From a virus, in IMG/VR virus record IMGVR_UViG_3300033153_003354, positions 17,383 to 81,382 of that record: a stretch of 64,000 nucleotides of DNA, one strand, 5' to 3'. The position numbers and the translations under genes are program-made. The notes beneath the pieces were generated by a model that saw only the letters and a list, made by a program, of their open reading frames with translations, searched no databases and was not told the origin of the DNA. This document shows positions 451 through 54,600 of the stretch, in pieces; within the stretch, counting starts at the first letter, position 1, and every line of letters begins with the position of its first letter.

Positions 451-451
451 T

Positions 452-34769: not shown

Positions 34770-34843
34770 AAAATTATTAGATGAAGGATATACAATAATG
34801 TTTGAATTTGCAAATGGAATGAATATAGGAATAAGGATAGAAG

Positions 34844-35383: not shown

Positions 35384-35385
35384 AA

Positions 35386-35790: not shown

Positions 35791-35963
35791 TGTTATGAGA
35801 TGTGCTGGGTGTGGGAAAAAATTAAAACCCACAAAGGAACCCAAAGATGCTGTTGTTTACTGTGTTCGTTGTAGCAGAGATGAGTTTCAATCTTTGGAAA
35901 AAGAATTACACGATATGCAATATTAGTCCATCTTTGGAAAACTTTATATACTTATAATAGTAT

Positions 35964-36785
35964 GTGACATTACGTGAAACAATGAAAGTTTGGAAAAGAC
36001 CACATGACAATCTCACTTACCGAGATAGGTGTGTTGAAGATACTGCTCGGCATCAATGTGAAATCATTAATCGACCTAACAAAACATTATTTTTTGCGTG
36101 TGAAAACGGAAGTAGAACATATGGATTTATGCGTGAAGATAGTGATGTTGATATTCGTGGTGTATATTTGGAATCTTCTAGTTCACTAATTGGATTACAC
36201 AAACCAAAAGACACCATCACTGGTATAGATCAAACTGGATATTTGGATTGGCAATTATTTGAAATTCGTAAATTTATGAATTTAATTCTGAAGTCAAATT
36301 TAAATTGTTTAGAGTGGATATTTAATCATCAATCTTACGTTAATCTTCAATGTCACAATGAATTTAGAGATCTGATGAAACTTTCAAAACAATGTATTAC
36401 TCGAAAATTAGGAAATCATGCCAGAGGATGGGCATATCAAATATATAAAATGGATTGGAATGAACCAAAAAAGTGTCTATATGCCATTCGACCTCTTATG
36501 TTATATATTATTCTAATGAGAGATGAACTATTCATATCGGACATTAGAGAGCTTGGTAGGCGAATGGAAATAGAAGATCATATCAACAATCTGATTAATG
36601 TTAGAAATGAAAATCTACCAACACCAAGACATTTAAAAGATAAGAATGTCAAAATATATGAAGAATTTGTTGAATTGAGTAGAAAATTAGAATCAGATTG
36701 TTGGATCCCGAAAAAACTACCAGACAGTATTGAAAATGAAATGAATGAACAACTTCTTTGGTTAAGAATGAAACCATTTACGTAG
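35964..36785 (+). CDS. DNA polymerase-beta superfamily nucleotidyltransferase (RlaP/PF10127-like)
   Basis: ENGSRTYGF..EDSDVDIRGVY and FEIRKF...KSNLNCLEWI motifs. Confidence 0.88.
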   Translation: MTLRETMKVWKRPHDNLTYRDRCVEDTARHQCEIINRPNKTLFFACENGSRTYGFMREDSDVDIRGVYLESSSSLIGLHKPKDTITGIDQTGYLDWQLFEIRKFMNLILKSNLNCLEWIFNHQSYVNLQCHNEFRDLMKLSKQCITRKLGNHARGWAYQIYKMDWNEPKKCLYAIRPLMLYIILMRDELFISDIRELGRRMEIEDHINNLINVRNENLPTPRHLKDKNVKIYEEFVELSRKLESDCWIPKKLPDSIENEMNEQLLWLRMKPFT

Positions 36786-37954
36786 GTGAAAAAATGAGTA
36801 GAAAAATGAGTGAAGAAAATGCATCTCCATCAAAAGAAAAAATGGAAGATATAATTTTAATTAAATCTAATAGTCAATTTCTTATTGAAAATATAGAATA
36901 TATTAAAGATAAATATAAACCACACATTAAAAACAAACCAATAATAAATGCTATAAATAATTCACCTTCTTTGATAGGTATAATTAAGTGGGCGATTAAA
37001 AATACAAAAGAATTACATGATGTTATATATAGAAATTATGAAGATTCATATGGAAACAAAACTCTACCGACACATTTTGTTGCGGTTGGGGACAATTGGA
37101 CATTAATTATATCTCCAATGTATCATGAAAGAATATCACTTTTGTTTACAGATACCAAAGAAACATATGATAAAATAACAGATATTACACCAGAATATTA
37201 TAATCCTGGAAACTACCGCATTAATAGTTGTATTGGTGGTTTTTATTTAGACCCAATTGATATAAAACCTGGAACATCACCAATTTTAGATAATGATTTG
37301 CAAACAACTGTAATCGAAGATATAAAAAGATTTTATGATTTTGCTGATTTTTACAAAGAACACGAATTACCACATATGCGTGGTATTTTGTTTCATGGTC
37401 CACCTGGAAATGGAAAAACCAGTTTAATTTTATCTACAATTAAGGAAATAAAAGATTCTTATAATATAATAATGCCACTTGATATTGTTGGTCTTGATGT
37501 TATGAAATATTTATCAACGGTTTTAAAACCAGAAGATAAAAAAATCATTATATTAGAAGATATAGATGGTGTAGATAAATATGAAAGAAGTAACATTTTA
37601 AATTTTCTTGATGGTATAAATGGCATGGAAAACACAATTATCCTTGGAACAACCAATTATATTCACTTGGTAGATGCAGCAATGGTAGATAGACCAAGTA
37701 GATTTGATAGAATATATCATATTGATCTACCATCTGCCAGTTCTAGAAAGAAATTAATAAAACAATTCTTTCCTGATGTTACCGAAGATGAACTTAAATC
37801 TGCTGTTATTAACACAGATGAATTTCCTGGTTGTTTTTTTAAAGAGATTTTCCTTGTTTCTAATTTACAAAACCTATCATTGGGAGAAGCGATTAAAGAA
37901 CTGAAAATACATTTACAAAATCATAAGAAAAACACCAGAGTTGAATGTGTATGA
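36758..37954 (+). CDS. AAA+ ATPase (BCS1-like)
   Basis: Walker A GPPGNGKT, Walker B ILEDID, TTN, DRPSRFD; start probably at Met near 36794. Confidence 0.9.
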   Translation: MVKNETIYVGEKMSRKMSEENASPSKEKMEDIILIKSNSQFLIENIEYIKDKYKPHIKNKPIINAINNSPSLIGIIKWAIKNTKELHDVIYRNYEDSYGNKTLPTHFVAVGDNWTLIISPMYHERISLLFTDTKETYDKITDITPEYYNPGNYRINSCIGGFYLDPIDIKPGTSPILDNDLQTTVIEDIKRFYDFADFYKEHELPHMRGILFHGPPGNGKTSLILSTIKEIKDSYNIIMPLDIVGLDVMKYLSTVLKPEDKKIIILEDIDGVDKYERSNILNFLDGINGMENTIILGTTNYIHLVDAAMVDRPSRFDRIYHIDLPSASSRKKLIKQFFPDVTEDELKSAVINTDEFPGCFFKEIFLVSNLQNLSLGEAIKELKIHLQNHKKNTRVECV

Positions 37955-38597
37955 CAAAATGGAAAGATATAACAGATGGAGAATAAAATGTTACCAATAC
38001 AATATGATTATGAAACATTATATGTGTATAGCATATCAGTTGGATGGCCGGAGGATGATGAAGATGAGTAACATCTTTTTTGTGGCAGATGAACATTACC
38101 AGCATCACAACATAATCGGCTACACGAATCGACCATTCAAAGATTTGTCAACAATGCACAACGCATTGATAAGAAATTTCAACGAATTCGTATCCGAAGA
38201 TGATTTGACATATCATCTTGGGGATTTTTCTGTAACAAGACAAGTGGAACAAGAACACAAGCTAATGAAAATCCTAGATCGACTGAATGGAAGACATATT
38301 CTTATCATGGGGAATCATGATTATCTGAAAGCCCAACATTATATTGATATTGGTTTTCAAGAATTTCATTCATATCTATATCTTGAAGAGTATAAGTTAC
38401 ATTTAACACACGATCCAGCAGTTACCCAAGTCTTACCAGATGCCAATTGGCTCTGTGGACATGTCCACGGACTGTTCAAGCAAGTTGGTAATGTTATCAA
38501 TGTTGGAGTAGATGTTTGGGATTACAAGCCCGTATCGTTGGAAGTAGTGCAGAGTATGTTAATGTTTGCGGAGGATGAATATGGCAACATGTTATAA
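37941..38597 (+). CDS. Calcineurin-like metallophosphoesterase
   Basis: DEH, LGD, GNHD, H, GHVH motifs; true start probably near 38056-38065. Confidence 0.92.
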   Translation: MNVYDKMERYNRWRIKCYQYNMIMKHYMCIAYQLDGRRMMKMSNIFFVADEHYQHHNIIGYTNRPFKDLSTMHNALIRNFNEFVSEDDLTYHLGDFSVTRQVEQEHKLMKILDRLNGRHILIMGNHDYLKAQHYIDIGFQEFHSYLYLEEYKLHLTHDPAVTQVLPDANWLCGHVHGLFKQVGNVINVGVDVWDYKPVSLEVVQSMLMFAEDEYGNML

Positions 38598-41569
38598 ATC
38601 CCCAAACCCGACATGTAAATGCGGAAAACACATGAAGGTAGAAATGTATTTACATGAAAAACCCAATCAAATAACTAGAATTGTGTGGAAATGTAAATGT
38701 GGTTTAGCAACCAAAGAAGATAGAGATGAATATATTGAACGAATTAACAAAATTATAGATGAACAAATGGTGAGATCATGAACGAAGGAGATATTAAAAT
38801 AGAACAGGTGTCAAATGGATTTATAGTATCGTATATGTGTGTAGATTGTGAAGAAATTCCTTATGTTAGAAAAGAATTGTTCACCGATGATAAAGATGAA
38901 TATACCAAAAATCTACCAGAAGACAACATCTCTGGATACAAATTATTACATGCTATAATGGAGCATTTTTGTTTTGGTGGATCCAAGCACGATAAAGCAC
39001 GAATACAAATAGAAATTGAACAACTGGAGAGTGAATAAAATGACAGAAGAATATAAATCAAGTGTATATTTAGAAGAAACAGAAAGAGACGCTGCTACAG
39101 GAATGATAATGAAACAAAAAGCATGTGTTTTGAAAGGTCAAGAAGATACTAAAAAACTTCTTAAAATGGCCAAGAAAGAGATAAAATGGAAGTGATATAA
39201 TGTGGCCGTTTAGTAAGAAAGAAAAAAAGGAAACTCGACAAATGTTCAGTGATAGAAAAGATAAAGAAGATAAACCAAAGAAAGACAAAATCACTGGTAA
39301 TTATGTTAAATTTAGTGTTGAAACAGCAAAAGTTAATCCAGATATGATCTTGGATGCTTATAAAAAACTGATAGATGAAATTACTAATAAAATTTTAAAT
39401 TTGTCTGATGTAAAGAAATTTAAAATGTGTATTTCCTCTGAAAATTTTGATGAAATAAAACAATTAATGGAAAATCCAAATGAAGATGATAATCAAGATA
39501 TAAACGAAAATGACGGATTTATAAAATGTTATATTGATGTTTCTAAATTTATATATTCTAAAAAAGCTAACCACAATGGATATGGTGGTATGTATTTTAC
39601 TAATATAACAGCAGATAGAATAAAACAACTGATAGACGATGAAACAACATACAAAGCAATTGAAATAAATAAATTAATTGTTAAATTAAAAAATGTAGAG
39701 AAAGAAAAAGAATGGTTTTATAATACATATAAAAGGTGGTAAGTATGGTAAATACTGATGAATTTAATTATCTGATAGATGGAATTTATTTGGCTTTTGA
39801 CGAAGAAGGTAGTGTCTACTTCAGATGTGATTGTAAAATGCCCGAAACTAGATTGTGCCAATCCTGCCAATTAAAGATCGGTAGATTTTTAGGTAATGGA
39901 ATTCATTTCTATGGGAGAGAATAGGAGGAGAAATAAAATGACAGAAGAAACAAGTGAAACAATTAATACCGAAGATAGATGTAAAACATGTGGATTGCTG
40001 AAATATTACATAGGAGATGCCACAGATTCTCAAATTTTATGTCAGTGTAACACAACCAATCTTGGGTGGATATGTCCCGTTTGTGGAGCTGATAATTCTC
40101 CTTGGACATCAACATGTCCATGTGTAACAGTTACTAATTATTCATGGTCATACATAGATGGTACTTGGTATCAAGAATAGGAGAGATAATATGGATGAAG
40201 ATAGAGATAAAATCAGAGAATACAGAAAAATACCAGTAAAGATACACGCAGTTCGATGGAATGGACAGAATCTTGATGAAGTTAAAAAACTCAATACTCT
40301 TGGAAGGAAAATTAAAAGAATGATGGGTCAGGATGGAATTTTGTTAATTGAAACCCTTGAAGGAATACATGAATGTAAAAAGGAAATTGGGTGATCCGAG
40401 GAGTGGCAGGAGAAATCTATCCTTGTAGAGATGATATTTTCAAGAAAACATATAATTTGGTGACTTAATGACTGAAAAAAGTGATACTAAAATATGGGAG
40501 ATAAAACAAAACATCATTGCTACTTATTGTAGAATTTTTAATAAATGTAATGGGTGTAGAGGTAGTGGCATATACAAACACTTATTATATGGTAAAAAAA
40601 CATGTCCTCGTTGTGGAGGTAAAGGATGATAAAATGACTAAAATTTGCACACGATGTAAGAAAGAACGTGGTCCAGTGATATTAGATAATAATGCTCTAT
40701 CAATTGCCTATCATTTAGATTTTATGGAAGATAATCCAAAGGAATTGTGCATAGATTGTTGGTTGAAGGATCGTGAATAAAATGACAATACAAACACAAA
40801 AACTAATAGACAAGATCGAGGACAAATTAAAATCATTCTTTTCATATTTAAAAGAAAAATGGAATGATAAATGGTATTCATTCAATCATTGGACAAGAAT
40901 GCTGGAAAGAAATTATCCATATACTTCATTACTTACCTTAATAGGCATAGCTATTGTTTTATCAATTATATTTTGGGTGACCTTATGAGGTGAATAAAAT
41001 GGATGTATATATACCATATGAAAAGACTGTCAAGGAAATAAAAGCACCAACAGACGAAAGTGTGAAATTATTGAATGAAATGTCAGAGGAAGTTATTAAG
41101 AATATTATGCATGAATATAAAGTAGAAAATACGAATATTGATACTGCTATTCTTATCCATGATGATCCAAAGAGAAGAATGAAAGTTGTTGTCCTGAAAA
41201 TTGTTGTAAATGGAGAAGAAAGAATATATTCAACTGGAATGAATGACGTTAGTATCATTGAAGAGGGTGTTGAGATCTTTCAACTTGCTATATTTGATTT
41301 GGTTAAGGATGCTGTCACAGATATTGTCAGTGGATTGGTAGTGGAAAACATGACTGAATATAATAAATTATTTAAGAGGTTTTAAAATGAATGAAGAAGA
41401 CAAACGATTTTTTAAAATAATTGATGATATGAGTGATGTAAAACTCACCGACTTGCAAAAAGAGCAGATATTGGAGATGGGCAAACGAGAGGAGCGAAAG
41501 CTGGTTTTCATGAGAAGAGGACCAATGCGGTGGATGAACATAGGAGGAAAAAAGAATGACCGATTTTAA
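38566..41569 (+). CDS. Cluster of small hypothetical and Zn-ribbon genes (38566, 38778, 39200, 39736, 39896, 40773, 40990, 41387 and shorter ORFs)
   Basis: Tightly packed plus-strand ORFs with GGAG/GGTGA RBSs and many CxxC pairs. Confidence 0.55.
40191..40468 (+). pseudogene. Conserved small phage protein (YRK-x-PV...IETLEG...W-x-I-x-G..GE-x-YPC..DIF..TY family) broken by a -1 shift in an A5 run
   Basis: The frame after 40377-40381 continues GNWVIRGVAGEIYPCRDDIFKKTY*. Confidence 0.75.
40468..40629 (+). CDS. DnaJ-type zinc-finger micro-protein (53 aa)
   Basis: CNGCRGSG and CPRCGGKG (two CxxCxGxG motifs). Confidence 0.7.
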   Translation: MTEKSDTKIWEIKQNIIATYCRIFNKCNGCRGSGIYKHLLYGKKTCPRCGGKG

Positions 41570-42301
41570 CCTGAAGTGCGAGAAGGCGTTTGAGTATTTG
41601 TTGCCAGATAGGGATAGGTGGTTTGACGGTGATAAATTCATTATGAAAAGCCACCCGAACAAGGTCAATACATTCTGCACGGAATGTGATTCAAAAAATA
41701 TACCAATGAATGATAGTGAATGGGTATACATTTTCACACAGGAACAGTTGCAGGAGATGGCATTTAATCATTATTCCAAAATGTATCCAAGATGGGAAAA
41801 AGAAGCAATATTTGACCTTGTATTAGTTATGTTTAGAAAATTTACTGAAAGATTAGATACTGGTCATATTCACAATTGGAATAAGATGTGGTTATGTTTT
41901 GTTATGGAAATTATACATGGAAAATCATGGTCATGCGAGAAGGAGGATTGGATATGAGTGATTTTAATATGATGATGGATAAGGCGTATGAATATCTGGG
42001 TTTATGTGAGGACAAAACACTCATGAGTACGGAGCCACTAACACAACAGAGGATAGATGAATGGGCGAGGAGTATATTCGAAAAAAGATATGGTGGAAAA
42101 TACACCCAAGAGCAGTTGCAAGATATGGTAATGGATAAGAAAGGTTGGAACTCATATACAACGCTGAATTATTTCATTGATTTCATGTCTATACAATCTG
42201 CATCAATGATAATATCTGAAATGTGGTTACGATTTGCTATGTATGTTCTTCACAGGAAACAATGGTCAGATGAAAAGGGAGATTGGATATGCAACACATA
42301 G
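41556..42301 (+). CDS. Two tandem paralogous hypothetical proteins (41556-41957 and about 41954-42301)
   Basis: Shared M-x-DFN...KA-x-EYL, TQEQLQ-x-M and MWL-x-F-x-M...H-x-K-x-WS-x-EK-x-DWI. Confidence 0.75.
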
Positions 42302-42512
42302 ATCAAGAAACTGGATGGAGCATCGAGGATATAACCTATGGTGGTATTGTATGGAGAGTTATAACATCAAATAACCAACCAAGAGGATTCATTTTTCGAC
42401 CTACCAAAGATGTGCCTTTTGCATATCGACCAGGAAGTGAATACGAATTATTGCAAGAAGAAGATTTGATTGCTATATCCAAACTGTTTAAATTTGTTAA
42501 TGGGATGATAAA

Positions 42513-44657
42513 ATGAAAAGTGAATATTTAATTGGTGATGCCAAAGATGTGTTGAAAACACTACCAGATAAACATTTTCAGTGTGTTGTTACAAGTCCTC
42601 CTTATTGGGGGTTGCGATCATATTTGCCCGATGATGATGCAGAGAAAAAGAACGAACTTGGTACTGAACAAACACCAGAAGAATATGTTGCCAACCTAGT
42701 TGATGTTTTTCGTGAAGTAAAAAGGGTGTTACGTGACGATGGAAATGTTTGGTTGAACCTGGGCGATAGTTATGCTTCATCTGCTACTGGATCATTTAAT
42801 GGAGGAGGATTCAAAGATTCTTCTGCAAAATCGGGTGGTAGAAATTTATCTGGAGTAGAATCAAGTGGAAAAATGGATAAATTAAAAGCAAGTGGACTCA
42901 AACCAAAAGATTTGGTTGGAATCCCGTGGCGTGTCGCATTTGCACTTCAGCAGGACGGTTGGTGGTTACGCCAGGATATAATATGGTGTCTATCAGGAGG
43001 AACCTATCTATACGTCAAATCACAGAAGGGAATCATGCCGATGACGGTGAAAGATTTATACCGACTCGATTTGACAAAATGTCAATTATGGAACGGTGAT
43101 AAATGGACTAATATACTCGGTATGAACAAATCTAAACGAAAAGGCGATGAGTTGGAAATGGTTTTACGAAGCGGAGAAAGAATATCATGTACACCAAATC
43201 ATAAATTCCCAACCGAAAGAGGAAATATAGAAGCATTGGAAATCGAAATTGGGGATGTAATTGAATCTGTTATGTTGCCCGATGGGAACACACCAGAATA
43301 TATCAATGCTGAAATGGCATGGTTTATTGGCATCTATTTGGCGGAAGGGTCTAAAAGCGGAAGTGCGTTGCAGATAGCGGGACATGTCAAAGAAAAAACT
43401 CGGTGGGAACGCATACAGCAAATGGTGAAGTATTATGGGGGCTCTTGTACCCGTACAATATCCGGCAATAAAATGGACATCCGGGTTTATGGTAGAATCA
43501 TTCATGCTATCATAACTGAACATATTTCTGGAAGAATAGCAAAGAACAAAGGACTGTCTAATAAATGTTGGCAATACGATAACAAGTTTTTGGATAACTT
43601 ACTAACTGGGTATCTGGAAGGTGACGGTCATTGGGACAAGGAAAATAAAAGGTGGCGACTCGGATTCACACGAAACTATAATCTTGAACGTGATTTGAGA
43701 TCGTTGTCTGCAAGGCTGGGATATTCCATAACATTAAAACCCAACATATCGGAAAATACCGTAACAGGGAAAAAACACCCATCATTCAGAGGCGAAATTA
43801 GGAAAACCGTATCTAATCACCACAATAATAAATCAAGAAATGAAGTGGTTGAAATTCGTAAAGCAAGATGTAGGTATGTGTATGACTTGGGTGTTGAGGA
43901 TTACCCACATACATTTTCGTTGGCAAGTGGTATATTAACACACAACTCAAAGCCCAATCCTATGCCAGAAAGTGTTACCGACAGATGCACAAAATCCCAC
44001 GAATACGTCTTTTTGTTGACTAAATCGGCAAGATATTATTACGATTCTGATGCAATAAGGGAAAACCACGACCACCCATCAATAAATCATAAATCGGATA
44101 GAAAAACCACTGAACAAGAAAAATCGTTCATCGGAAAAGCACCAACAAATTTAGGTAGATGTGGTAACAACCCAAACGGCAGAAACAAACGCTCGGTGTG
44201 GACAATTAATACAAAACCGTATAAGGAAGCTCATTTCGCAGTATTTCCGCCAGAATTACCAGAACTGTGCATAAAAGCTGGAACAAGTGCCAAAGGACAA
44301 TGCTCGAAATGTGGAAATCCTTGGATTAGAGAAATTGAGAAAATACAAACCAACAAAAGCAACGAAAAAGGTATAACTGAAATGATAGAAAAAGGTGTTC
44401 CAAGACAAAAAGCAAATTTATATGTTACACAAAAAAGAGGAACAAATAAAACAATCGGATGGAAACCAACATGTGATTGCAATGCAAAAATCGTACCACA
44501 AATCGTTCTAGATCCCTTTGCCGGAAGTGGGACAACAATTATGGTTGCAAAGGAACTTGGCAGACATGGTATTGGAATTGATCTCAATGATAAATATCGT
44601 GAAATTGCTGTCCGAAGATGTAATTTAGATGTTGAATCAGTGGAGGATTTCTTTTGA
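42513..44657 (+). CDS. N4/N6 DNA methyltransferase (beta-class) containing an intein
   Basis: VTSPPY catalytic motif, HFAVFP, LDPFAGSGTT SAM-binding motif; Zn-ribbon insertion CSKC...CDC. Confidence 0.95.
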   Translation: MKSEYLIGDAKDVLKTLPDKHFQCVVTSPPYWGLRSYLPDDDAEKKNELGTEQTPEEYVANLVDVFREVKRVLRDDGNVWLNLGDSYASSATGSFNGGGFKDSSAKSGGRNLSGVESSGKMDKLKASGLKPKDLVGIPWRVAFALQQDGWWLRQDIIWCLSGGTYLYVKSQKGIMPMTVKDLYRLDLTKCQLWNGDKWTNILGMNKSKRKGDELEMVLRSGERISCTPNHKFPTERGNIEALEIEIGDVIESVMLPDGNTPEYINAEMAWFIGIYLAEGSKSGSALQIAGHVKEKTRWERIQQMVKYYGGSCTRTISGNKMDIRVYGRIIHAIITEHISGRIAKNKGLSNKCWQYDNKFLDNLLTGYLEGDGHWDKENKRWRLGFTRNYNLERDLRSLSARLGYSITLKPNISENTVTGKKHPSFRGEIRKTVSNHHNNKSRNEVVEIRKARCRYVYDLGVEDYPHTFSLASGILTHNSKPNPMPESVTDRCTKSHEYVFLLTKSARYYYDSDAIRENHDHPSINHKSDRKTTEQEKSFIGKAPTNLGRCGNNPNGRNKRSVWTINTKPYKEAHFAVFPPELPELCIKAGTSAKGQCSKCGNPWIREIEKIQTNKSNEKGITEMIEKGVPRQKANLYVTQKRGTNKTIGWKPTCDCNAKIVPQIVLDPFAGSGTTIMVAKELGRHGIGIDLNDKYREIAVRRCNLDVESVEDFF
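42987..43946 (+). mobile_element. Intein with LAGLIDADG homing endonuclease (320 aa)
   Basis: IIW|CLSGGT N-terminal junction, CTPNH block B, YLAEGS and YLEGDG LAGLIDADG motifs, VYDLGV...ILTHN|S C-terminal junction. Confidence 0.95.
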
Positions 44658-44682
44658 AAATAATAGAATTATTTAATATAAG

Positions 44683-45642: not shown

Positions 45643-45723
45643 TTTGATTTATAGATTTGAAAAACCTACAAAACAACATAAAAGTATAAATAGAAGTTAA
45701 CCAATGATGAATTAGGTGAGAAA

Positions 45724-46044
45724 ATGACTAAAAAAGTAATTGAAGGTATATTTTGCAACATGTGTGGTCGTTTTATTAAATATACATATGATAAATATAC
45801 AAAATCTTCAGAATGTATAGGATGTGGAAAACATCTATGTGAAAAGTGTACTTGTGAGATCAATGTAACAACAATCAAAAGACATTGGAAAGAATCTACT
45901 GGTACACTGCCTTATGGAGCTGGTGGTACAATAACATCACCATTTAGAGAGATAAAAATATGTGAAGATTGTCTTCCTAGTGACAACGAGGTTTTGGATG
46001 CAATCACTACATATATCAAAGGCGTTGGTGAGAATGATGACTGA
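45724..46044 (+). CDS. Multi-CxxC zinc-finger protein
   Basis: Four CxxC pairs; AGGTGA RBS. Confidence 0.65.
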   Translation: MTKKVIEGIFCNMCGRFIKYTYDKYTKSSECIGCGKHLCEKCTCEINVTTIKRHWKESTGTLPYGAGGTITSPFREIKICEDCLPSDNEVLDAITTYIKGVGENDD

Positions 46045-46231
46045 AGATTGTAAATCATCTCTTAATAAATTTATTCGCAAACTTACTCATAGACCACTCC
46101 TTACCTATGTAAATATATAAAAGAGTTACTTCACACGTAAGGAGAAATTAATCGCCTTGCAAAGTCGAGTAACCCGAAGATGTATAAATATGTTTAGAAA
46201 AGTTTATATAGTTTGACAACATACTTGTTTT

Positions 46232-46301
46232 GATATAACGGGAAACCAACATGTCGCTTGGTTCATTGTTTCACCTCAACTTAATTTTATCCCGTTATGT
46301 C
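46232..46301 (+). ncRNA. Putative small RNA: 12-bp closing stem with an anti-RBS loop
   Basis: TTTATATA at 46203 places the start at G46232; GATATAACGGGA pairs with TCCCGTTATGTC; loop contains CATTGTTTCACCTC. Confidence 0.5.
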
Positions 46302-46622
46302 TACTATATGATCTTGTGAGTTACACCACTAACAAGTGGGTTTTTCAAAAATTGACCTCACGGTTTTTCTAGGGTGACAATGACAAGGAAAAAGCTGTCG
46401 AGAAAAAGTGAATTTAATAATAAGATATTAACATTTAAATAATCTTGGATCGAGAGATTTAATTAACTTCAACTTTCAAGTTCACTTTCACCCTACTTGC
46501 TTCCAAAATGAAGTGGAACTTATTTTTATGTGTTTGACTAGGGATCATCAACCTTGAATTGGAACTTAAAGGATATACTATTATATAGTCACACAGGTAT
46601 AGAGTGGTAGAGGTGTAAAAAA

Positions 46623-47427
46623 ATGTCCAAAGATGAAACCCAATCGAACAACGAAACGATAAATGCAGTGTGCCAGCTGATAGAGAGGATAATGTTGGAG
46701 GGTGATGATCCATTCGCTCCGCATGTATATCTATCCTCATATCCAGAGTTGGCGATATATAATTTATCGGAATCCGAAATAAAAGAGATATGGGAAAAAG
46801 AGGTGATTAAATGAACATAAAAACAACAAAGACAAAGACCGGATACGAGATAAGAGTGAACGGAAAGATCGTATATAGTGACGATATAGAGGAGGAAATT
46901 TAAATTTTCTATTTGTTTTTCAAATAAAAAGAAGAGGTGAAAAAATGGTCGATAGCACATTGGTCGCTCTTGGGATCACGAGTGGAATTATCGGTTCGGC
47001 AATAATATTAAAAGGACCGATAAAAGATTTGTTTTTATCCCTGGGTGAGAATTTAAAACCTACTCCCCCGACACCAGAGATAACAGTCGAATTTAAATCT
47101 CCGGTTGAGATAAAAAACACGGATATAAATTTCTCGACACCGATAGAAATCCATACATACTCGATGCCTAGGAAGAGAGATAAAAATCCAAAACCGGAGA
47201 TAAAAGAATACTTGCTATGAGGTGGAAAAATGAAAAAAATATATAAAAAACTATTGGTCGATGAATGGCAAAAAGAATTCTCGGTTATTGAGGTATCCAA
47301 AGAGTGTTTTGATATTAGCCCAGAAATTGAAACTGTCGGAACGATGATCGGAATAAAAATTTATTCATTGGAGGATTTAAATTTTCGAATGAATATATTG
47401 ATCGAAAAAGGATTCTCTTTATATTGA
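46623..47427 (+). CDS. Small-gene operon (46623-46814, short ORF from 46811, 46945-47220 membrane-anchored, 47230-47427)
   Basis: GAGGTG RBS before each ORF; CpG-richer composition than the flanks. Confidence 0.6.
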
Positions 47428-47522
47428 GGTTAAAAAATAATTATTTTCAAAATTTTTGGATTTTTTCGATCCGCATTAAAATTTTTCAGAAAAAATAAAA
47501 ATAAAAATAAAAATAAATATCG

Positions 47523-47950
47523 AAAAATCTCTACCAATTGACGACCTTTTATATTTCCGAAAAGTTATAAATATATTTCTCTGGAGCTAGAAATCTCTAC
47601 CAATTGAGTCAATTACGTTTTGGTTTAATTATTTGTCGTTCCGATAAAAAATAAACCAAGTTCCAAAAAATCTCTACCAATTGAGGGTGCTGGGACACAA
47701 AAAAGAGGTGATTTTGTCCAACCGAGCTGTGTCCCAGCGAAGTGATACAGGTCTGCCCGGTTTCTTACAGTGTTTCCATCCGTTTGTAAACCACTATATG
47801 ATGCACGTAGTATAAATACTTTCCTACCCCAAAGATGTTTTGCTGGACAAATGTCCAAATAACCACTTGGTTAAGAGTAAAATGACCGATTATAACACCG
47901 AAATAACCACTAAATTAAATTTTCGTCTGGTCAAAATCCCTACCAATTGA
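47523..47950 (+). repeat. Four direct repeats AAATC(T/C)CTACCAATTGA (iteron- or pac-like)
   Basis: Core CTACCAATTGA at 47531, 47597, 47674 and 47940. Confidence 0.85.
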
Positions 47951-48142
47951 ACAATTTAATAATTATATTGTTTTTAATTATCAAAATGTTATTTCACTAT
48001 GATCTCAAATGTAATCCATAGACGGTGTCATAAACTATCCTTAAACCCACCATAACGCCATTCAAATCTTTAAAACGTATCAAACCATACCAAATCATCT
48101 TTGTTGGCCCAGGATTGACTGTTTGATACCTTAAACGGCGTT

Positions 48143-48586
48143 TTAATCATCCTCATCCAGCTCATTATCATCCAAGATGTCATATTTGTCTAACAATGAT
48201 TTGATCTCACCAGTTTCTTCAGCTTCCTTAACCTCTTTGATAGCTTGGCGCACCAAATATTGTACCATTTTCTTACTTGCCCTCTGACTTACCTTCTTTA
48301 CATGGAAGGATCCAACATTTATGTTTATATTTTGTCGTAATTCCAATATCATCTGTATATCTTGGAAGGCAATTGTCTTTCCCGGCATTTTCGCAGCACA
48401 TCCAGCCACATCCTCAACAATCGTATTCACAACCAGGTTGATCGCATCAATAACTTCAGCAGAGATACGTTTGCCACTCCCATCCTTGAGAGCTTTCCGC
48501 ACCAAAGATTTGTTAATCATCATTGGGAGATCCTCTGCTCGTTGCTCGTCCATGCCTTTCTCTAATATCTCAAATACTTCCATCAT
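48143..48586 (-). CDS. Histone-fold protein with acidic tails and a possible second partial fold
   Basis: INKSLVRKALKDGSGKRISAEVIDAIN...AAKMPGKTIAFQDI matches the alpha1-RIS-alpha2-KTI-x-x-x-D histone signature; GGGGTGA RBS; own TATA promoter. Confidence 0.75.
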   Translation of the reverse strand: MMEVFEILEKGMDEQRAEDLPMMINKSLVRKALKDGSGKRISAEVIDAINLVVNTIVEDVAGCAAKMPGKTIAFQDIQMILELRQNININVGSFHVKKVSQRASKKMVQYLVRQAIKEVKEAEETGEIKSLLDKYDILDDNELDEDD

Positions 48587-49679
48587 ATCACCCCGATTTG
48601 TGGTTTTATCGGATTTTCGACAAATCCAGAAAACGGATCACCAACAATCTATGTCAAAGATGTATAAAAACCTTTCCCAAGGATGATTTTATAGACCCCA
48701 TGGGTCTATCGCCCAAAATACTCCAAAAGTCAGGGGAAGTATATAATCTATTATTATTATATACAATACTGAAACGAAATATTTATCAGTGGTGGTATTT
48801 AAACTTCCACTACTAGAAGTTTAAGTTTATATACTTACATAAATAACAAGTCAAATAAACAAACCATATATTAGAATAATATATGGTATAGTATGCCTAA
48901 ATATCCAAACCTTCTATATATACCTTGACATGTCAGTTGTGGTAGTTCTATTATTACCACTACTGTGAAGTGATAGAATTAAACTATATAAACTTGCACT
49001 GCCAGCCATGTTGTCGTATTATATTATGTATATAATATAGGGATCTGCTTGTTATCTTTCTATTATATATATTTTATGGAGTGTTACTTTTCCATATTTT
49101 GCAATTCTGTGGACCGATTTTAAATTTGATATCCGTTAAACCTCGAAATACTCCATATATTCAATAAAAAGGGGTCAAAACTATCACGGAATCGAAAACC
49201 ACCCAAAATCGAAAAAAAGGGGGGTCATATATATAGATGAAGGAAAAAATAATGTTTTTTTGATAAAGTGTGTTTTTTTACAATATATATAATAATTTCT
49301 ATTACTAGTCAGATAACACCACTAACAAGTGGGATTACAAATGGAATTGTTAGTAAATTAACCAAAGATGGAAATGTAAATTTGACTATCAATCGACTAT
49401 TAAATTCATCATTTTGTTGTTCTGTGTAACTTGCAGTGACATAGATCAACCATATCATCTTTGGTATAGATTACTATAGAAATAAGATTGATGATAAAGT
49501 GGAAAGGACACCCGTGAGTGTTTAAGAATAAAGTGTTGTGATCGTCTGTGTCCTATTCCAAAGATGAATGTACTTGTATGTATATAAATGTATTGGTCGT
49601 TTGATTGTCCGGTTGTTCCGTTAATCCTACGGAGTAATGGATCAAACGGCGTACATATACTAACCATCACAAATCATCT

Positions 49680-50306
49680 TTGGGTCGACACATGGACCTG
49701 TATGGGTGGTTTCTGTGGACAATAAATACTTATACATCTTTGGATATAACATATTATATGATTCCAAAGAGGGATGAAAAACGAGAACAACGAATAATAA
49801 AACGATGTATTAAATTACTTAAATATTATAATATTACAAATGTAAACGTGGTGTTTGATGGTAGGTTGAAACATATGTCTTATTATAATCAATTAAGTAG
49901 AAAGATAGTTTTAAATTCAACCTGGTTATATGCTAATACCCAAACTATGTTTTGGACACGTGTTGTTCTACATGAGATCGCACACGTCATCCATTGGGAT
50001 GAATATATTTGGTTGCAACCATCACAATTTCATAATAATATGTTTAAAGAAATATTCTTTTCTATTGGTGGAACAGGATGTGGGAATGAAACACAAGATG
50101 GAGATTTTAAAAACTTATATAATGTATATAAATGTAATAAATGTGGTTATAAATGGTATTCACCAACAAAATTTATAGACAAAGAACACCCACATATATC
50201 TGATACTTGTGATGGTATGGTAATACATATAGGATCAAAAATACTTTCCACTGGAAGTGTAGACTCAAAGATGAAGTTGAAAACTATTTCCACTGGAAAT
50301 CAATAG
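49680..50306 (+). CDS. SprT-like zinc metalloprotease
   Basis: VLHEIAH, H..MFK, YKCNKCG; true start probably ATG near 49758. Confidence 0.75.
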   Translation: MGRHMDLYGWFLWTINTYTSLDITYYMIPKRDEKREQRIIKRCIKLLKYYNITNVNVVFDGRLKHMSYYNQLSRKIVLNSTWLYANTQTMFWTRVVLHEIAHVIHWDEYIWLQPSQFHNNMFKEIFFSIGGTGCGNETQDGDFKNLYNVYKCNKCGYKWYSPTKFIDKEHPHISDTCDGMVIHIGSKILSTGSVDSKMKLKTISTGNQ

Positions 50307-50364
50307 TGAAATGTACAACATGGTCTATATATCATTGGTTTGGTGTCCCACTTTGTACACTCGA

Positions 50365-50733
50365 TTATAACACAAAAGATTTGGTTGTTGTTTTGTTTGA
50401 CTTGTGTATTGTCTTTATATTGGTATGTATGCCATTCCCATGGAGTAACTTCAAATTTGGTCGTGATGATGTGACTAGTAACATTCCTTTACGTCTGGCA
50501 CTATCTAACACTGCCATATATTCAAGGAATTCCTCTGGTGTTTTATCTGCCTTCAAATAGTTGCATATAGAACACGAACAAACAAGGTTGTCATCGTTAT
50601 CTTTTCCTCCTCCTCTCGATATGGGTGTCAGATGGTCCACAGTCATTATGACGGAATTTATACTACCACAATAATAACAAGTATAATCATCACGTTCCAT
50701 GATTTTGAATTTCTTATTTTTTGAAAGACACAT
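50365..50733 (-). CDS. HNH endonuclease
   Basis: RDDYTCYYCG...TVDHLTPISRGG...NLVCSCSICN..K. Confidence 0.92.
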   Translation of the reverse strand: MCLSKNKKFKIMERDDYTCYYCGSINSVIMTVDHLTPISRGGGKDNDDNLVCSCSICNYLKADKTPEEFLEYMAVLDSARRKGMLLVTSSRPNLKLLHGNGIHTNIKTIHKSNKTTTKSFVL

Positions 50734-50737
50734 TCAA

Positions 50738-51318
50738 TCACCCAACAATAATTATACCTGTAGTTGGAGACATAACCTCAATAACTTCGATCTTTGATTG
50801 TTTTATTTGTTTGTCGGGTCTGTATTGGTCCACAAGATCTATTGGTTTAATCATTCTTCCAACATTAAATTTATAAAACTTCCAACAATCATTGATTGGT
50901 TTGAATGCCCAAATCTTGTTATCATGACCACAATTAAATCGTGCGAATATAAATCCATCCTTTCCTATATAAATACAAGGAGCATGTAATATATCACCAA
51001 ATAATCTATCCATGGTTGCCTTTATATTTACCTTTATATATCCTCTTAACTTATTGGCTGTGAATTTCATTTCCAATCCTCCACATCATCTGAAAATGCT
51101 TTATGTTTTCCTTTGTGTCCTTCTCCTCTGATACATTGACGACCATCTTTGTTTTCATCATCACACCGATCTACAAATTTAGAAATCTTTCTCCCACATA
51201 CACAACAATAATTATCATCTTCGGTAATGTAATCATTGTCACATTTATCACATTTATAAAAAATTGTATATAGTTCTTCTAATCCATCTTCTATTGCTAT
51301 TGTTGTTTTGTTTTTCAT
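50738..51318 (-). CDS. Two hypothetical proteins (50738-51076; Zn-binding 51067-51318)
   Basis: GGTGA RBSs; co-oriented with the HNH gene behind a promoter near 51500. Confidence 0.6.
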
Positions 51319-51683
51319 TTAATCACCCAGGACCGTCTTTGCCAGCAGATCCATAAGGACCGACATATTCATCTTCATTCTTCGCTTCTGATATAGTAAT
51401 CTTACCATCAGAGAATGTGATTTCCACCGTATGTTCATCTATTATATTTACTTTCATCTTTGGTTCACCTTACAACTACATATCAGTAGTAGTATATATA
51501 AGTATCTACCCAAAGATGAATTTAACATTTTATGATTATATGTAGTGATAAATTATTATTTTGTATTCATAAATGATTTATTGGTCCGTTGGTTTTACAA
51601 ATCAATGGATCAAAATGTAACACATCTTTGGATAACAAAGTTTATATATTTCTTGGGTGTTGTTACAATTAGGAGATTAGAAA

Positions 51684-54600
51684 ATGGAACTAATATGGAC
51701 AATATTCGTAGGCGTGTTACTTGCAAATGTAGTTGGATCAGTGGTGACTTTTCTTTTGGTAATGTTGCCATTATCACTATTACAATATGTATTGAAAAAG
51801 AAACTAAATGAACAACTAGTGAAATTATGTGTAGATGCCAAACTAAATCATGTCATTATAGAAAAGTGAAAGGTGGAACAAAATGACCAAAGATGAATTT
51901 AATTGGACCGAAGATAAAGTGATGGATTTTATTGACAAACAAGATGAATTCAAAAAACATTGTCGAGAAGTGGTAGTAACAATTCAAGAAATAAGAACCA
52001 GTAATAATTTCAATTATAAATTCAAAGAATATGATTCTATATCAATTGAAGAAGGAACGGTATTTGTTGAATATGAAGAAGATTTATGTGGTTGTTGTGA
52101 TAATAGAATGTCAATTACATTTCCTATTAAATATCTTTGGGCAACCATAGAGGATTTTGAACAATATGAAAAGGATCTTGAAAAGGCTGCTATGGCAACA
52201 GAAGCATATAGGAAAACGATGCTTGAAGCGGCCAAGTTAAAAAAAGAAATTCTGGAAAAACAAGAATATGATCGTCTTCGGGAAAAGTTTGGTGATTAAG
52301 ATGGGTATATATGAAAAATGTTACAAAGAACAATACGGAGAAGAGTTTGAAGCATGGAAATCAGATACATCCGATACATATAATGAATGTATGGATAAAT
52401 TGATTAATTCAGGAGTTGGCATAATGGATGCTTTCATATTTGTAGAAGAAATAATTTCCGCCACTAGGGAAGAATATGGTGATTAAATGGAACATCAACA
52501 TAGATTTTATCGTGTGACAACAAAAGATGGACTCAAGGGACCATTTGAACCAATAGAAGAACTAATACTAACAATAGGTAGTATAAATATAGAGGATTAT
52601 CCATTATCAATAGAATTAAAAGAAATGACATTTGAAGAATATGAAGATCTACCAGTATGGTTAGGATGGTGAGTGAATGATAACAGTAACACATTGTAAT
52701 AAATGTAAGGGCGATGGATCTTATCTAACTGGTGGAAACAGAGAACGAAAAATATATGGTCCAGGTGGATCACAAACGTTTAAGACATGTAGTAAATGTA
52801 ATGGAACTGGTCATGTTGTTAAAGAGGTGAGTAAATGACATGTTTAGAATGTGGATGCCCAATGATAAGAGAACAGTATGGAAGATGTCAATGTGATTGT
52901 GAGTGGTGCGATCCTGATTTATAGGACCAATAAGTTTATATACTACCATCATTATTAGGTTGTTAAGGTGAAACCAAAGATGGAAAACAAAGTGAAGGTG
53001 GAACATGTGATTAATCATATAAAAATAAAAGAAGAAATACAAAGATTAATAGAATTGGACAAGCAAGAAAGAGAAATACTTCTTGATATTACTAATAAAA
53101 CAGAAAAAGTAATTGCTGATATTAAATTTTTAAATGGTAGAATGCATGCATATAATATGGTATTACATTTAATGGATAAACAAGAATTTCAATATGTGGA
53201 GGATTTGTGAATGGAAAACAAAGTGACAAAGGATGATTTACGAGTATGTGAAGTAATGATTCCAAATGAATTATGTGTGCTGAAGGCAAATAATCATATT
53301 GGTGATGATGTATATATTGTCAGACCACACTCTACCAATTATGATACAAAGATATGTAAGAATTGTACATTTCAACAAATGTGCAGGAATTCACAGTAGG
53401 TGAAACAAAATGATAACATGGTTACTTCTTTGGTTTTTAGGATACCGTAGACTAATTGTAAACAGTAAAGAAACTTGTTTTAAATCCAAAGGTACAGTCA
53501 TTTGGATAGGTAAAGATGGAGTTTTATATTCATGGATGACAGATAGATATTCTATGTTTGGATATTCATGGTTCCGTAAAAAACCAAGTAGAAAATATTG
53601 GGGCGGGTATATTTCTGGTGGATGCTGGGAAAGTTATATTTTAGATGATCTTATTGGATATATAATAAAAGATCGTCCATCAAAGATGAAGGAACAAACA
53701 GAAATACTAGTTATAAAATGCGTTCCAACATTTAGATGTGAATATGGTTTTGAAACAGATAACGTTCTTATAATGAACGATCATCATGTGGAGTGTTACA
53801 CATATGAAGGATAAACGAATTTTTAAATACAAATTAAACATAATCGATAGTCAATATATTCCAATGCCACAAGGTTCACAAATTCTATCAGTCAAAGAAC
53901 AAAATGGAACATTAAATATATGGGCAATAGTAGATATAAATAATGATAATATCAAAAATAGATGGTTTTACATCTTTGGAACAGGAAATGAATTTGATAT
54001 ATCTCTTGATGATGCTAAATTTATTGGCACTGTGGTAATGTCAAATGGTCTAGTATGGCACGTTTTTGATGGTGGAGAAACACAATGAATAAAAATGAAC
54101 AATATCGACACACCTCCCACCTGACCCAGACAGGTGTAAATTATTCTGGGTGGAGCGGGGATCTCTCGGTCCCGTCACCGAGTCCAGGCGGTGAGTATCC
54201 TGGACATCATCTTTGGGTCCATAAACTATATATACTTCCACTACTATAGGGTATTAGAGGTGTCACAAAATGAACCAAGAAACAAACCATAAAAGTGAGC
54301 CACACGACAAGTTCATAGTAAAATGGGTCCAGGAGGAGAATGATGGAAATCTTGTTGAATTAAAAGATGATTTCAACTCACTTCATGATGTAAACGAACA
54401 CATCACTCAACTACGACTCTATGCAGAACATACAGGAAAAACTTTCAAAGTAATATCTATTACAGAGGTGATCTAGATGATCGAAGATGATGTTAAATAC
54501 ATATGTCCAGATGCACCAGGTGGATGCAAATCATTGCATTGTTATCACAAAAATCCACATCAACATATAGATTATTATTGTGACACAGATGGAAAAATAT

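What the first reader, a model, noticed from the sequence alone, without database searches (positions are those of the whole stretch)
35929..54235. The CATCTTYGG motif sits at two stereotyped positions around TATA boxes
Seen, class 1 (motif about 5-11 nt upstream of the TATA, at or beside the BRE): 35929 (NTase promoter), 51623, 54208, 51510 (minus) and 47829 (minus). Class 2 (motif fused directly downstream as TTATA-CATCTT): 49735 (SprT), 46174 (minus) and the one-mismatch CATCTTTGA at 48654 (histone promoter, minus). Established: archaeal activators tend to bind upstream of BRE/TATA, and repressors overlap or follow it. Inference: one factor acts as both activator and repressor and forms a master switch of the infection programme.
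Basis: partly seen in the sequence, partly recalled or inferred. Interest (0 to 1): 0.72.

Follow-up and report, generated by a model that had tools for sequence, protein, structure and literature searches.

The report
Viral DNA word placed beside promoters
An uncultured archaeal tailed virus carries the nine-letter DNA word CATCTTYGG about fifty times too often, mostly inside genes, and a few copies sit at a fixed place just before promoter TATA boxes, which hints that an unidentified protein reading the word also touches transcription.

Summary

**Class 1 (word upstream of the TATA box) is real and more than chance.**
- I called 14 gene-proximal promoters without using the word. In 4 of them its 5' base lies 14-18 nt before the TATA box, always pointing towards it.
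- Expected by chance is 0.06-0.10. None of 200,000 relocations reached 4.
- A fifth copy sits before an orphan TATA.

**Class 2 (TTATA fused to the word) is weak.** It has two exact copies and one variant, P=0.012 uncorrected, and the TATA orientation or the gene start is ambiguous.

- There are 51 copies in the window against about 1 expected, and 60 in the 81-kb record.
- 39 of the 51 lie inside genes, on either strand.
- They are written at silent codon positions: 41 of 81 possible peptide contexts carry the word, against 3.8 expected.
- Only 1 of 38 intragenic copies has a promoter-like sequence after it.

**Best reading.** The word is the site of an unidentified, probably viral, DNA-binding protein that occupies the whole genome and also modulates some promoters. 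A dual-function "master switch" is not shown. This scan noted the same word genome-wide in this genome, and similar words in giant viruses on other DNA.

The parts
337..62992 (.). All 51 copies of the word CATCTTYGG in the window (19 on +, 32 on -). 39 are intragenic and 12 non-coding.
   Evidence: The genome record holds 60 copies, and the control (the pattern read backwards) holds 0.
35929..35950 (+). Class 1: word 35929-35937, 5-nt gap, TTTATATA 35943-35950. ATG of the RlaP-type nucleotidyltransferase gene at 35982.
   Evidence: RlaP family, Pfam E=1.4e-28.
51623..51648 (+). Class 1: word 51623-51631, 9-nt gap, TTTATATA 51641-51648. ATG at 51684, 61 nt after the word's 5' base; first gene of the rightward block of small genes.
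51493..51518 (-). Class 1: word 51518-51510, 8-nt gap, TTATATATA 51501-51493. ATG at 51457, 61 nt after the word's 5' base; heads a leftward operon that ends in an HNH endonuclease gene.
   Evidence: HNH, Pfam E=1e-9.
54208..54234 (+). Class 1: word 54208-54216, 10-nt gap, TATATATA 54227-54234. ATG at 54270, 62 nt after the word's 5' base.
47810..47837 (-). Class 1 at an orphan promoter: word 47837-47829, 10-12-nt gap, TATTTATAC 47818-47810. No ORF follows; a hairpin-forming stretch does.
   Evidence: promoter matrix score 7.9. The hairpin was seen by eye only.
49729..49743 (+). Class 2: weak TATA CTTATACA 49729-49736 fused to word 49735-49743. An in-frame ATG at 49758, 29 nt after the TATA start, would give a leaderless SprT-like mRNA.
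   Evidence: The SprT-like match is below Pfam's cut-off (21.9 bits against 25.6).
46174..46190 (-). Class 2, ambiguous: word 46182-46174 directly after ATTTATA on the minus strand. The same bases read on the plus strand as GTATAAATA (46182-46190) with the word reversed and abutting it.
   Evidence: (family D5).
48654..48675 (-). Class 2, variant: one-mismatch word CATCTTTGA 48662-48654 directly after TTTTTATA (48675-48668), 89 nt before the ATG (48586) of a weakly histone-like gene.
   Evidence: Pfam CBFD_NFYB_HMF E=0.03. Best PDB hit is a histone-fold protein at E=0.18. The variant occurs 8 times against 2.4 expected.
49558..49683 (.). Back-to-back pair. Minus-strand TTTATATA (49588-49581) has a word at +22 (49566-49558). 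A weak plus-strand ACATATAC (49653) has a word at +22 (49675-49683). Each word would lie over the expected transcription start.
   Evidence: Read from the sequence; n=2, no test run.
51455..51463 (+). A word whose reverse complement CCAAAGATG supplies the start codon of the minus-strand gene 51457-51323 (GGTGAACCAAAGATG). With 51510(-) it brackets the whole leftward core promoter.
52974..52982 (-). A word whose reverse complement supplies the start codon of gene 52980-53210, 47 nt after TTTATATA at 52935.
46627..46635 (-). A word starting 1 nt after the ATG (46623) of the first gene of a plus-strand operon. The same layout occurs at 51887-51895, after the ATG at 51883.
   Evidence: (family D10).
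47524..47950 (+). Four iterons AAAATCTCTACCAATTGA in a 715-nt non-coding stretch, a candidate replication origin inside the word-dense control region.
   Evidence: families D1, D2.

Best explanation
CATCTTYGG is the recognition site of an unidentified sequence-specific DNA-binding protein. The protein is most likely encoded by the virus and, because the site is asymmetric, most likely binds as a monomer.

Shown:
- Selection on the DNA itself keeps about 60 copies across the genome. They sit wherever they cost the proteins least.
- About a dozen copies lie in the roughly 11% of DNA that does not code.
- Four to five of those sit in one register, 8-10 bp (once 5 bp) upstream of a TATA box, next to the A-rich stretch where a BRE would lie, and always pointing at the TATA.

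Inferred:
- At that position the bound protein would touch TFB and TBP. It would help recruit them, or block them where the gap is short.
- Copies between the TATA box and the start site (49735, 46174, the variant at 48654), over the expected start site (49558, 49675) or on the first codons (46627, 51455, 51887, 52974) would hinder RNA polymerase.
- The roughly 39 intragenic copies hold the same protein on the genome, as a reservoir that titrates it or as a mark or coat on viral DNA. They are not promoters.
For: The word is real and specific:
- 51 copies against 1.06 expected; 60 in the genome with a reversed control of 0.
- It is the most over-represented 9-mer in the genome.
- There is no longer conserved flank.
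- One-mismatch variants are graded, 3-7 times over expectation at positions 1, 5, 6 and 9. That fits a binding matrix better than an exact enzyme site.

Selection acts on the DNA:
- In 77 ORFs of at least 100 aa, 41 of 81 peptide contexts able to encode the word do so, against 3.8 expected from codon usage.
- 13 control words (12 permutations and the reversal) gave 0-2 copies against 0.07-1.9 expected.

The word is linked to promoters:
- 12 of 51 copies lie in the 10.9% of DNA that is non-coding (P=0.007).
- 4 of 14 promoters have the word at -14 to -18 in forward orientation, against 0.06-0.10 expected.
- T[AT]TATA boxes peak 31-50 nt before 105 gene starts, 17 against 4.7 expected. The TATA boxes are therefore positionally meaningful.
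- All 5 class-1 copies point the same way.
- The five class-1 promoters share nothing beyond the word and the TATA box, so they are not simple duplicates.

The word is private to the virus as far as tested:
- It is not enriched in a Marsarchaeota genome (38 against a control of 35 in 2.2 Mb).
- It is not enriched in 201 genomes of that phylum (at most 122 copies in 4.3 Mb).

Precedents:
- Position-dependent activation and repression by one factor, TrmBL1 (PMC4706686, passages).
- One asymmetric site used at promoters and at more than 20 dispersed places in a phage genome (PMC9283540, passages).
Against: - No candidate reader was found. Pfam scans of 70 predicted proteins gave only a winged-helix hit (35386-35790), a weak MarR hit, zinc ribbons and a sub-threshold histone fold.
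- The word-to-TATA gap varies from 5 to 12 nt, which is loose for a factor that must touch TFB.
- The numbers are small (4-5 class-1 sites), the register was chosen after seeing the data, and two sites share one divergent region.
- Nothing ties the intragenic majority to transcription. Only 1 of 38 copies has a promoter-like sequence after it, and orientation relative to genes is mixed (14 sense, 25 antisense).
- No transcription starts, no expression data and no related genome with the word could be obtained. Conservation of the layout is therefore untested.
Confidence: 0.4

Rival explanations
1. The word serves a genome-wide function that has nothing to do with transcription. It could mark viral DNA as self, or guide replication, recombination, compaction or packaging, as DUS/USS or Chi sequences do in bacteria. 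Copies near promoters are by-products: spacer DNA beside a promoter is the cheapest place to keep a copy.
For: - 39 of 51 copies are intragenic, at silent positions and on both strands.
- Spacing looks like random placement (CV 0.96 against 0.98 simulated).
- Density is about 1 per 1.3 kb, as recalled for uptake sequences.
- Strand use is mildly biased, 22 against 38 (P=0.05).
- The word is densest (15 copies in 8 kb) around the iteron-bearing candidate origin.
Against: - The relocation test was already confined to non-coding DNA and still gave 4 against 0.06.
- In the 226-nt divergent spacer 51458-51683 there is ample free room, yet both words sit at -17 and -18 of their TATA boxes.
- All five class-1 copies have the same orientation, which cheap placement does not predict.
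Confidence: 0.3
2. One reading: a dedicated transcription factor activates from sites upstream of BRE/TATA and represses from sites fused downstream of TATA, and this is the master switch of the infection programme.
For: - Class-1 placement is non-random.
- TrmBL1 shows such dual use in archaea (PMC4706686).
- The control region 46-52 kb holds 13 copies in 6 kb.
Against: - Class 2 has 2 exact copies and 1 variant, is not significant after correction, and has ambiguous TATA orientation or gene starts.
- Three quarters of the copies are far from any promoter, which a promoter switch does not need.
- Promoters with and without the word do not sort into obvious early and late modules. Of the word-free promoters, only the one before the portal gene stands in the structural module; the others stand among non-structural genes, as the word-bearing ones do.
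Confidence: 0.1
3. The word is the product of a biased repair or modification process linked to the virus's DNA methyltransferases, as proposed for HIP1 in cyanobacteria. No protein reads it for regulation.
For: - The record encodes at least two N6/N4 methyltransferases and radical SAM enzymes.
- The HIP1-methylase link is recalled and was named in a scan note. I did not read the paper.
Against: - The variants that deamination of the word's C or G would create show no depletion.
- A repair drive does not predict a fixed register and orientation at promoters, nor the 2.2-fold excess in non-coding DNA.
Confidence: 0.08
4. The TATA association is a chance pattern in an AT-rich genome (32% G+C), picked out after the fact.
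For: - Only 4-6 sites carry the signal, and the register was chosen post hoc.
- T[AT]TATA occurs near 5.5% of non-coding positions.
- With loose definitions almost any non-coding copy can be placed in some class near some TATA.
Against: - 0 of 200,000 relocations reached the observed 4.
Confidence: 0.1

Closest known systems
TrmBL1/Tgr and the Thermococcales glycolytic motif (TGM): position-dependent activator and repressor (PMC4706686, passages read)
   Same: One DNA site is used on both sides of the core promoter. Upstream of BRE/TATA goes with activation, and downstream of the TATA box with repression by blocking RNA polymerase recruitment.
   Different: - The TGM is a palindrome bound by a cellular sugar-sensing regulator.
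- 28 of its 34 ChIP-seq sites (82%) lie near promoters.
- Here the site is an asymmetric 9-mer in a virus, 39 of 51 copies are intragenic, the downstream class is poorly supported, and no regulator is known.
Operators and stoperators of Cluster A mycobacteriophages (L5 gp71, TipsytheTRex repressor; PMC9283540, passages read)
   Same: A short asymmetric site, probably read by a monomer, is present at promoters and at more than 20 further places across a tailed-virus genome.
   Different: - Stoperators lie in short intergenic spaces, and their orientation follows the direction of transcription.
- Here most copies are inside genes, in both orientations (14 sense, 25 antisense).
- The host here is archaeal and the promoters are TATA-type.
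TFB-RF1 (PF1088) of Pyrococcus furiosus (PMC5937170; only the abstract start in the search listing was seen)
   Same: It activates promoters with weak BRE by recruiting TFB, as the abstract start says. This is the kind of action that a protein bound beside the BRE, like the class-1 word's reader, could have. That TFB-RF1 binds directly upstream of the BRE is recalled, not seen in a call.
   Different: It is a cellular factor with few targets. No genome-wide word and no sequence likeness were tested.
DNA uptake sequences (DUS/USS), Chi and HIP1 of bacteria (recalled; HIP1 and DUS were also named in scan notes)
   Same: Short words at about one per kb, on both strands, written into coding DNA at silent positions in the frames that cost least.
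   Different: - Those are features of cellular chromosomes with known or suspected readers (uptake machinery, RecBCD).
- Here the word is private to a virus and was not enriched in the 202 archaeal genomes tested.
- A subset here is locked to promoter geometry.
Hyper-abundant DNA words noted by this scan in uncultured giant viruses and one enterobacterial prophage (AI notes e1-5472206, e1-5546718, e1-227402 and others; not checked by me)
   Same: About one copy per kb, both strands, genes and spacers, silent positions, reader unknown.
   Different: Other virus groups and other words. None of those notes, as listed, reports a fixed register relative to a core promoter element.

Membership tests
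Archaeal BRE/TATA core promoter | An AT-rich TATA box at a fixed distance upstream of the transcription unit | tested here: met
   T[AT]TATA starts peak 31-50 nt before 105 gene starts: 17 in two 10-nt bins against 2.35 expected per bin. 14 promoters have their TATA 34-45 nt before an ATG, mostly with a GGTGA-type ribosome-binding site between them.
Archaeal BRE/TATA core promoter | A purine/A-rich BRE directly upstream of the TATA box | tested here: inconclusive
   The 4-6 nt before the TATA box are A-rich in 14 aligned promoters (AAAG, AACC, TAAG). No statistical test was run and no host BRE consensus is known.
Archaeal BRE/TATA core promoter | Transcription starts about 25 nt downstream of the TATA box | not testable with these tools
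   No sequencing run holding this DNA was listed.
Position-dependent dual regulator site (TrmBL1/TGM type) | Sites upstream of BRE/TATA at one set of promoters | tested here: met
   4 of 14 promoters plus one orphan; 0 of 200,000 relocations reach 4. Location only; no activity was tested.
Position-dependent dual regulator site (TrmBL1/TGM type) | Sites directly downstream of the TATA box at another set of promoters | tested here: inconclusive
   2 exact copies and 1 variant fused to TTATA (P=0.012 uncorrected), and 2 more at +22. TATA orientation and gene starts are ambiguous.
Position-dependent dual regulator site (TrmBL1/TGM type) | Most sites lie near promoters | tested here: not met
   39 of 51 copies are intragenic. 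Only 1 of 38 has a promoter-like sequence at the class-1 distance.
Stoperator-type dispersed repressor sites (Cluster A mycobacteriophages) | A short asymmetric site in more than 20 copies across the viral genome | tested here: met
   60 copies in 81 kb, with no dyad symmetry and no conserved flank.
Stoperator-type dispersed repressor sites (Cluster A mycobacteriophages) | Sites in short intergenic spaces, oriented with the direction of transcription | tested here: not met
   39 of 51 copies are intragenic, 14 sense and 25 antisense.
Uptake-sequence or Chi-like hyper-abundant genomic word | About one copy per kb, on both strands, kept at silent codon positions | tested here: met
   One copy per 1.29 kb. 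41 of 81 possible contexts carry the word against 3.8 expected, and 13 control words give 0-2.
Uptake-sequence or Chi-like hyper-abundant genomic word | The word is shared with the cellular genome whose machinery reads it | tested here: inconclusive
   Not enriched in 202 archaeal genomes of one phylum. The host is unknown; the only lead is a TnpB 59% identical to one in a Marsarchaeota MAG.

The most novel reading that the evidence does not exclude
The hyper-abundant word and the promoter sites form one system. A virus-encoded reader gates a set of promoters from a fixed position beside the BRE. The roughly 40-50 intragenic copies act as a titrating reservoir whose size grows with every round of genome replication. 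Viral DNA copy number would then set the timing of the infection programme. This would also give a first functional handle on the unexplained DNA words that this scan has noted in giant viruses.
Probability: 0.12. Interest if true: 0.85.

Novelty: new variant of a known kind. Interest (0 to 1): 0.55.

Why it matters
Very few regulators of archaeal viruses are known, and none, as far as my three literature searches show, is tied to a word written about 60 times into a viral genome.

If the promoter register is functional, it links two things that are usually treated apart. One is classical promoter-proximal control. The other is a genome-wide word kept at silent codon positions.

It also points to simple experiments that need no cultured host. 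The viral proteins can be expressed, the one that binds the 9-mer found, and that protein added to an archaeal in vitro transcription system.

It may also show what similar words in other large viruses are for.

Tried and rejected
**Relatives**
- TerL as a single query found no relative in IMG/VR.
- A portal search found only relatives of 36% identity or less over the full length. The two closer ones (45-49%) are on ENA contigs of 1.7 and 5.4 kb.
- 80 IMG/VR loci fetched with the portal alignment hold at most 3 copies of the word each.
- The 15-copy 9-mer in L069 is a 15-nt tandem array, not a dispersed word.
They hold at most 3 copies each.
- The iteron pattern gave 72 single chance matches.
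- The scan's own index has no look-alike stretch.
- Conservation of the layout therefore could not be tested.

**Host**
- The RFC query found no cellular relative.
- TnpB gave a Marsarchaeota MAG at 59% identity. The word is not enriched there or in 201 genomes of its phylum. Other phyla were not searched.

**Expression**
- No sequencing run was listed and no RNA holder was listed.

**Ideas rejected**
- Intragenic copies as cryptic promoters: 1 of 38 lies above the 95th percentile of a promoter matrix.
- An RNA-level signal or a promoter of a viral RNA polymerase: orientation relative to genes is mixed.
- Regular spacing, as expected for priming or chromatin phasing: CV is 0.96.
- A peptide-level cause: the copies sit in six frames.
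- A longer repeat or mobile element: there is no conserved flank.
- The copy at 31298 inside TerL has the best promoter-like sequence after it, but it lies within the ATPase domain, so I did not count it as a promoter.

**Candidate reader**
- Pfam scans of 70 proteins and a PHROGs scan of 10 named no clear transcription factor.

**Literature**
- Searches found no report of such a word in an archaeal virus. That holds for those searches only.
- I did not ask for supplementary files. Additional files of PMC4706686 may hold site tables that I did not see.

**Weak points of my own method**
- Gene calls are my own: longest ATG ORFs, curated by hand between 46 and 52 kb.
- I first set the SprT-like start at 49771, which is out of frame. 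The noncoding counts and the promoter permutation and the listing of the 49729 promoter were run with that entry. It was changed to 49758 only. The 12/39 split is the same either way, because 49735 lies upstream of both starts.
- The list of TATA patterns for the 14 promoters was written after I had seen the sequences.

Full report
**What the DNA is.**
- The window is bases 17383-81382 of an 81,382-base IMG/VR virus record, which CheckV rates about 60% complete.
- It is a tailed virus. It has a Mu-type portal fused to a MuF domain, a T4-type large terminase and tail proteins.
- Its replication genes are of the archaeal type: family B DNA polymerase and an RFC small subunit with the Rep_fac_C domain. 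The nearest Atlas clusters of the RFC are archaeal.
- The portal's best matches among deposited phages are Bacillus and Geobacillus phages at 34-37% identity. The structural module alone therefore says nothing about the host.
- The archaeal reading also rests on promoter geometry. T[AT]TATA hexamers pile up 31-50 nt before the 105 gene starts I called, 17 against about 4.7 expected. 14 genes have a TTTATATA/TATAAATA-type box 34-45 nt before the ATG, usually with a GGTGA ribosome-binding site between them.
- The only host lead is a TnpB 59% identical to one in a Marsarchaeota MAG.

**The word.**
- CATCTTYGG occurs 51 times in the window against 1.06 expected, and 0 of 100 shuffles come near.
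- It occurs 60 times in the whole record, while the same letters read backwards occur 0 times.
- It is the most over-represented 9-mer of the genome.
- It has no conserved flanks beyond a T/A preference just upstream.
- Its one-mismatch variants are moderately enriched at positions 1, 5, 6 and 9. That looks like the graded specificity of a binding protein.

**Where the copies are.**
- With curated gene calls, 39 of the 51 copies lie inside genes (14 sense, 25 antisense) and 12 lie in the 10.9% of the window that does not code.
- The intragenic copies use all six frames but favour the cheapest ones, xCC-RAA-GAT-G (Lys/Glu-Asp) and xCA-TCT-TYG-G (Ser-Leu/Ser).
- In 77 ORFs of at least 100 aa there are 81 peptide contexts that could be spelled with the word. 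41 are, against 3.8 expected from the genome's own codon usage.
- Twelve permuted words and the reversed word gave 0-2 copies against 0.07-1.9 expected, and had only 12-35 possible contexts.
- The word is therefore kept by selection, or by a drive, on the DNA itself and not on proteins.
- Spacing is what random placement gives (CV 0.96 against 0.98), apart from a dense zone of 15 copies in 8 kb around window 46.6-54.6 kb.
- Strand use is mildly uneven, 22 against 38 (P=0.05).

- All five sites are as described.
- The gap from the word to the TATA box is 5 nt (35929), 9 (51623), 10 (54208), 8 (51510, minus strand) and 10-12 (47829, minus strand). All five words point towards the TATA box.
- Four stand before genes. 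In three of these the word's 5' base is 61-62 nt from the ATG. The fifth stands before a hairpin-forming stretch without an ORF.
- Three tests support a real association:
  1. Over all 60 copies, 6 have T[AT]TATA starting 12-23 nt after the word's 5' base against 1.3 expected (P=0.002). Ten neighbouring windows of the same width hold 0-3.
  2. Within non-coding DNA, 4 of 12 against 0.67 expected (P=0.003).
  3. Starting from 14 promoters defined by their TATA box and downstream ATG, without regard to the word, 4 have it at -14 to -18 in forward orientation. Relocating the 13 copies at random within non-coding DNA gave a mean of 0.06, and none of 200,000 trials reached 4 (Poisson 4.6e-6).
- The register was chosen after seeing the data, and two of the four promoters face away from each other in one 226-nt spacer. 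The true significance is therefore lower, but it survives a generous correction.
- The five promoters share nothing beyond the word and the TATA box, so they are not copies of one cassette.

- TTATA abuts the word at 49735 and 46174 (2 of 60 against 0.16 expected, P=0.012 for one of 95 offsets examined) and at the one-mismatch copy at 48654.
- This is not significant after correction, and each case has a problem:
  - At 46174 nothing is encoded downstream on the minus strand. The same bases read as a plus-strand GTATAAATA box of the type seen at 45684 and 56744, with the word reversed.
  - At 49735 the TATA is weak and the start of the SprT-like gene is uncertain. An in-frame ATG at 49758, 29 nt after the TATA start, would fit a leaderless mRNA. 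The SprT match itself is below Pfam's cut-off.
  - At 48654 the TATA is 89 nt from the ATG. The gene is only weakly histone-like (Pfam E=0.03; best PDB match a histone-fold protein at E=0.18).
- I saw further arrangements. Words lie 22 nt after a TATA start at 49558(-) and 49675(+), back to back. Reversed words overlap start codons at 46627, 51455, 51887 and 52974 (4 against 0.54 expected by my rough count, P=0.002).
- With only 12 non-coding copies, such classes multiply easily. Only the upstream register stands on its own.

**What the intragenic majority is not.**
- Only 1 of 38 intragenic copies has a promoter-like sequence at the class-1 distance. That one lies inside the terminase ATPase domain.
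- Orientation relative to genes is mixed, which excludes an RNA-level signal or the promoter of a viral polymerase.
- The copies lean towards the first 300 nt of genes (29 of 39 against 18.4 expected). This mostly reflects that long structural genes carry few copies.

**Is the word shared?**
- It is not enriched in the Marsarchaeota genome (38 against a control of 35 in 2.2 Mb).
- It is not enriched in 201 genomes sampled from that phylum (at most 122 copies in 4.3 Mb, about 25 times sparser than in the virus).
- It is not enriched in 80 loci of distant portal relatives, nor in 190 loci brought in by two pattern scans.
Whether the layout is conserved remains open.

**Reading.**
- The simplest account of all the facts is a sequence-specific protein, probably viral and monomeric, that binds the word all over the viral genome.
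- Where a copy lies beside the BRE, this protein would influence recruitment of TFB and TBP. Where a copy lies between the TATA box and the start site, or on the first codons, it would hinder RNA polymerase.
- This works like TrmBL1 in its dependence on position (PMC4706686). It works like the L5-type repressors in using one asymmetric site at promoters and at many other places (PMC9283540).
- It fails the membership tests of both families. Most sites are intragenic, orientation does not follow transcription, and the site is not palindromic.
- The main rival is that the word serves a non-transcriptional genome-wide role and merely accumulates in free spacer DNA. The within-spacer permutation and the uniform orientation count against it, but it is not excluded.

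**Verdict.** This scan had already noted the genome-wide word on this same genome (e1-6122754) and similar words in giant viruses on other DNA. What is new here is the fixed register beside archaeal core promoters.

Noticed in passing
window 47524-47950: Four iterons AAAATCTCTACCAATTGA (one with C for T), spaced 66, 77 and 266 nt, lie in a 715-nt non-coding stretch next to an A-rich tract. This is a candidate replication origin. An exact-pattern scan of IMG/VR gave only single chance matches.
   Followed up: partly
window 48587-49770: A 1.18-kb stretch without convincing ORFs holds strong promoter-like boxes that face each other (AAGTTTATATAC at 48823-48834 on +, AAGTTTATATAG at 48995-48984 on -) and 5 copies of the word in mostly alternating orientation (-,+,-,+,+) at 49362-49743. 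It may encode non-coding RNAs or be a second control or origin region.
   Followed up: no
window 46323-46343 and 49316-49336: A 21-nt hairpin-forming sequence (ACACCACTAACAAGTGGG...) occurs twice at 95% identity, the first time followed by a T-run. It may be a shared terminator or RNA element.
   Followed up: no
window 31298/31356, 32847/32903, 49675/49735, 51455/51510: Four pairs of words lie 55-60 nt apart centre to centre, against 0.28 expected for a 6-nt window (P=2e-4 uncorrected). Their relative orientations differ. The other short gaps are 88, 94, 102, 113, 117 and 137 nt. A loose 30-nt ladder would recall archaeal histone wrapping, but it is not significant.
   Followed up: partly
window 31278-31306 (-): Inside the terminase ATPase domain, a word is followed after 12 nt by AGAAAGTTTATAAAGG. 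This is the best match to my promoter matrix of any copy (score 13.7). It is either an internal promoter or a coincidence.
   Followed up: partly
window 829-907 and about 451-533: A tRNA-Arg (TCG) was found by ARAGORN and Rfam. Upstream of the ORF at 534 lies a second stretch that ends like a tRNA (…GGTTCAAGTCCTACCATGCCCGCCA), which neither program called.
   Followed up: no
window 42513-44657 (+): An N6/N4 DNA methyltransferase is interrupted by an intein with a LAGLIDADG-like domain. The two words in this gene lie in the extein ends and none lies in the intein.
   Followed up: no
window 60049-60555 (+) and 49692-50306 (+): There are two SprT-like metalloprotease genes. The one at 60049 passes Pfam's cut-off (E=6.9e-8). 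The one in the control region does not (21.9 bits against 25.6).
   Followed up: no
window 35386-35790 (+): A small protein with a winged-helix match (HTH_MCM7 E=1.6e-6, RecX_HTH1 E=4.4e-6) is encoded just upstream of the class-1 promoter at 35929. It is one of the few candidate DNA binders in the record.
   Followed up: no
window, all genes: Intragenic words lean towards the first 300 nt of genes (29 of 39 against 18.4 expected, P=0.0005). Long structural genes of 812-1141 aa carry only one copy each.
   Followed up: partly
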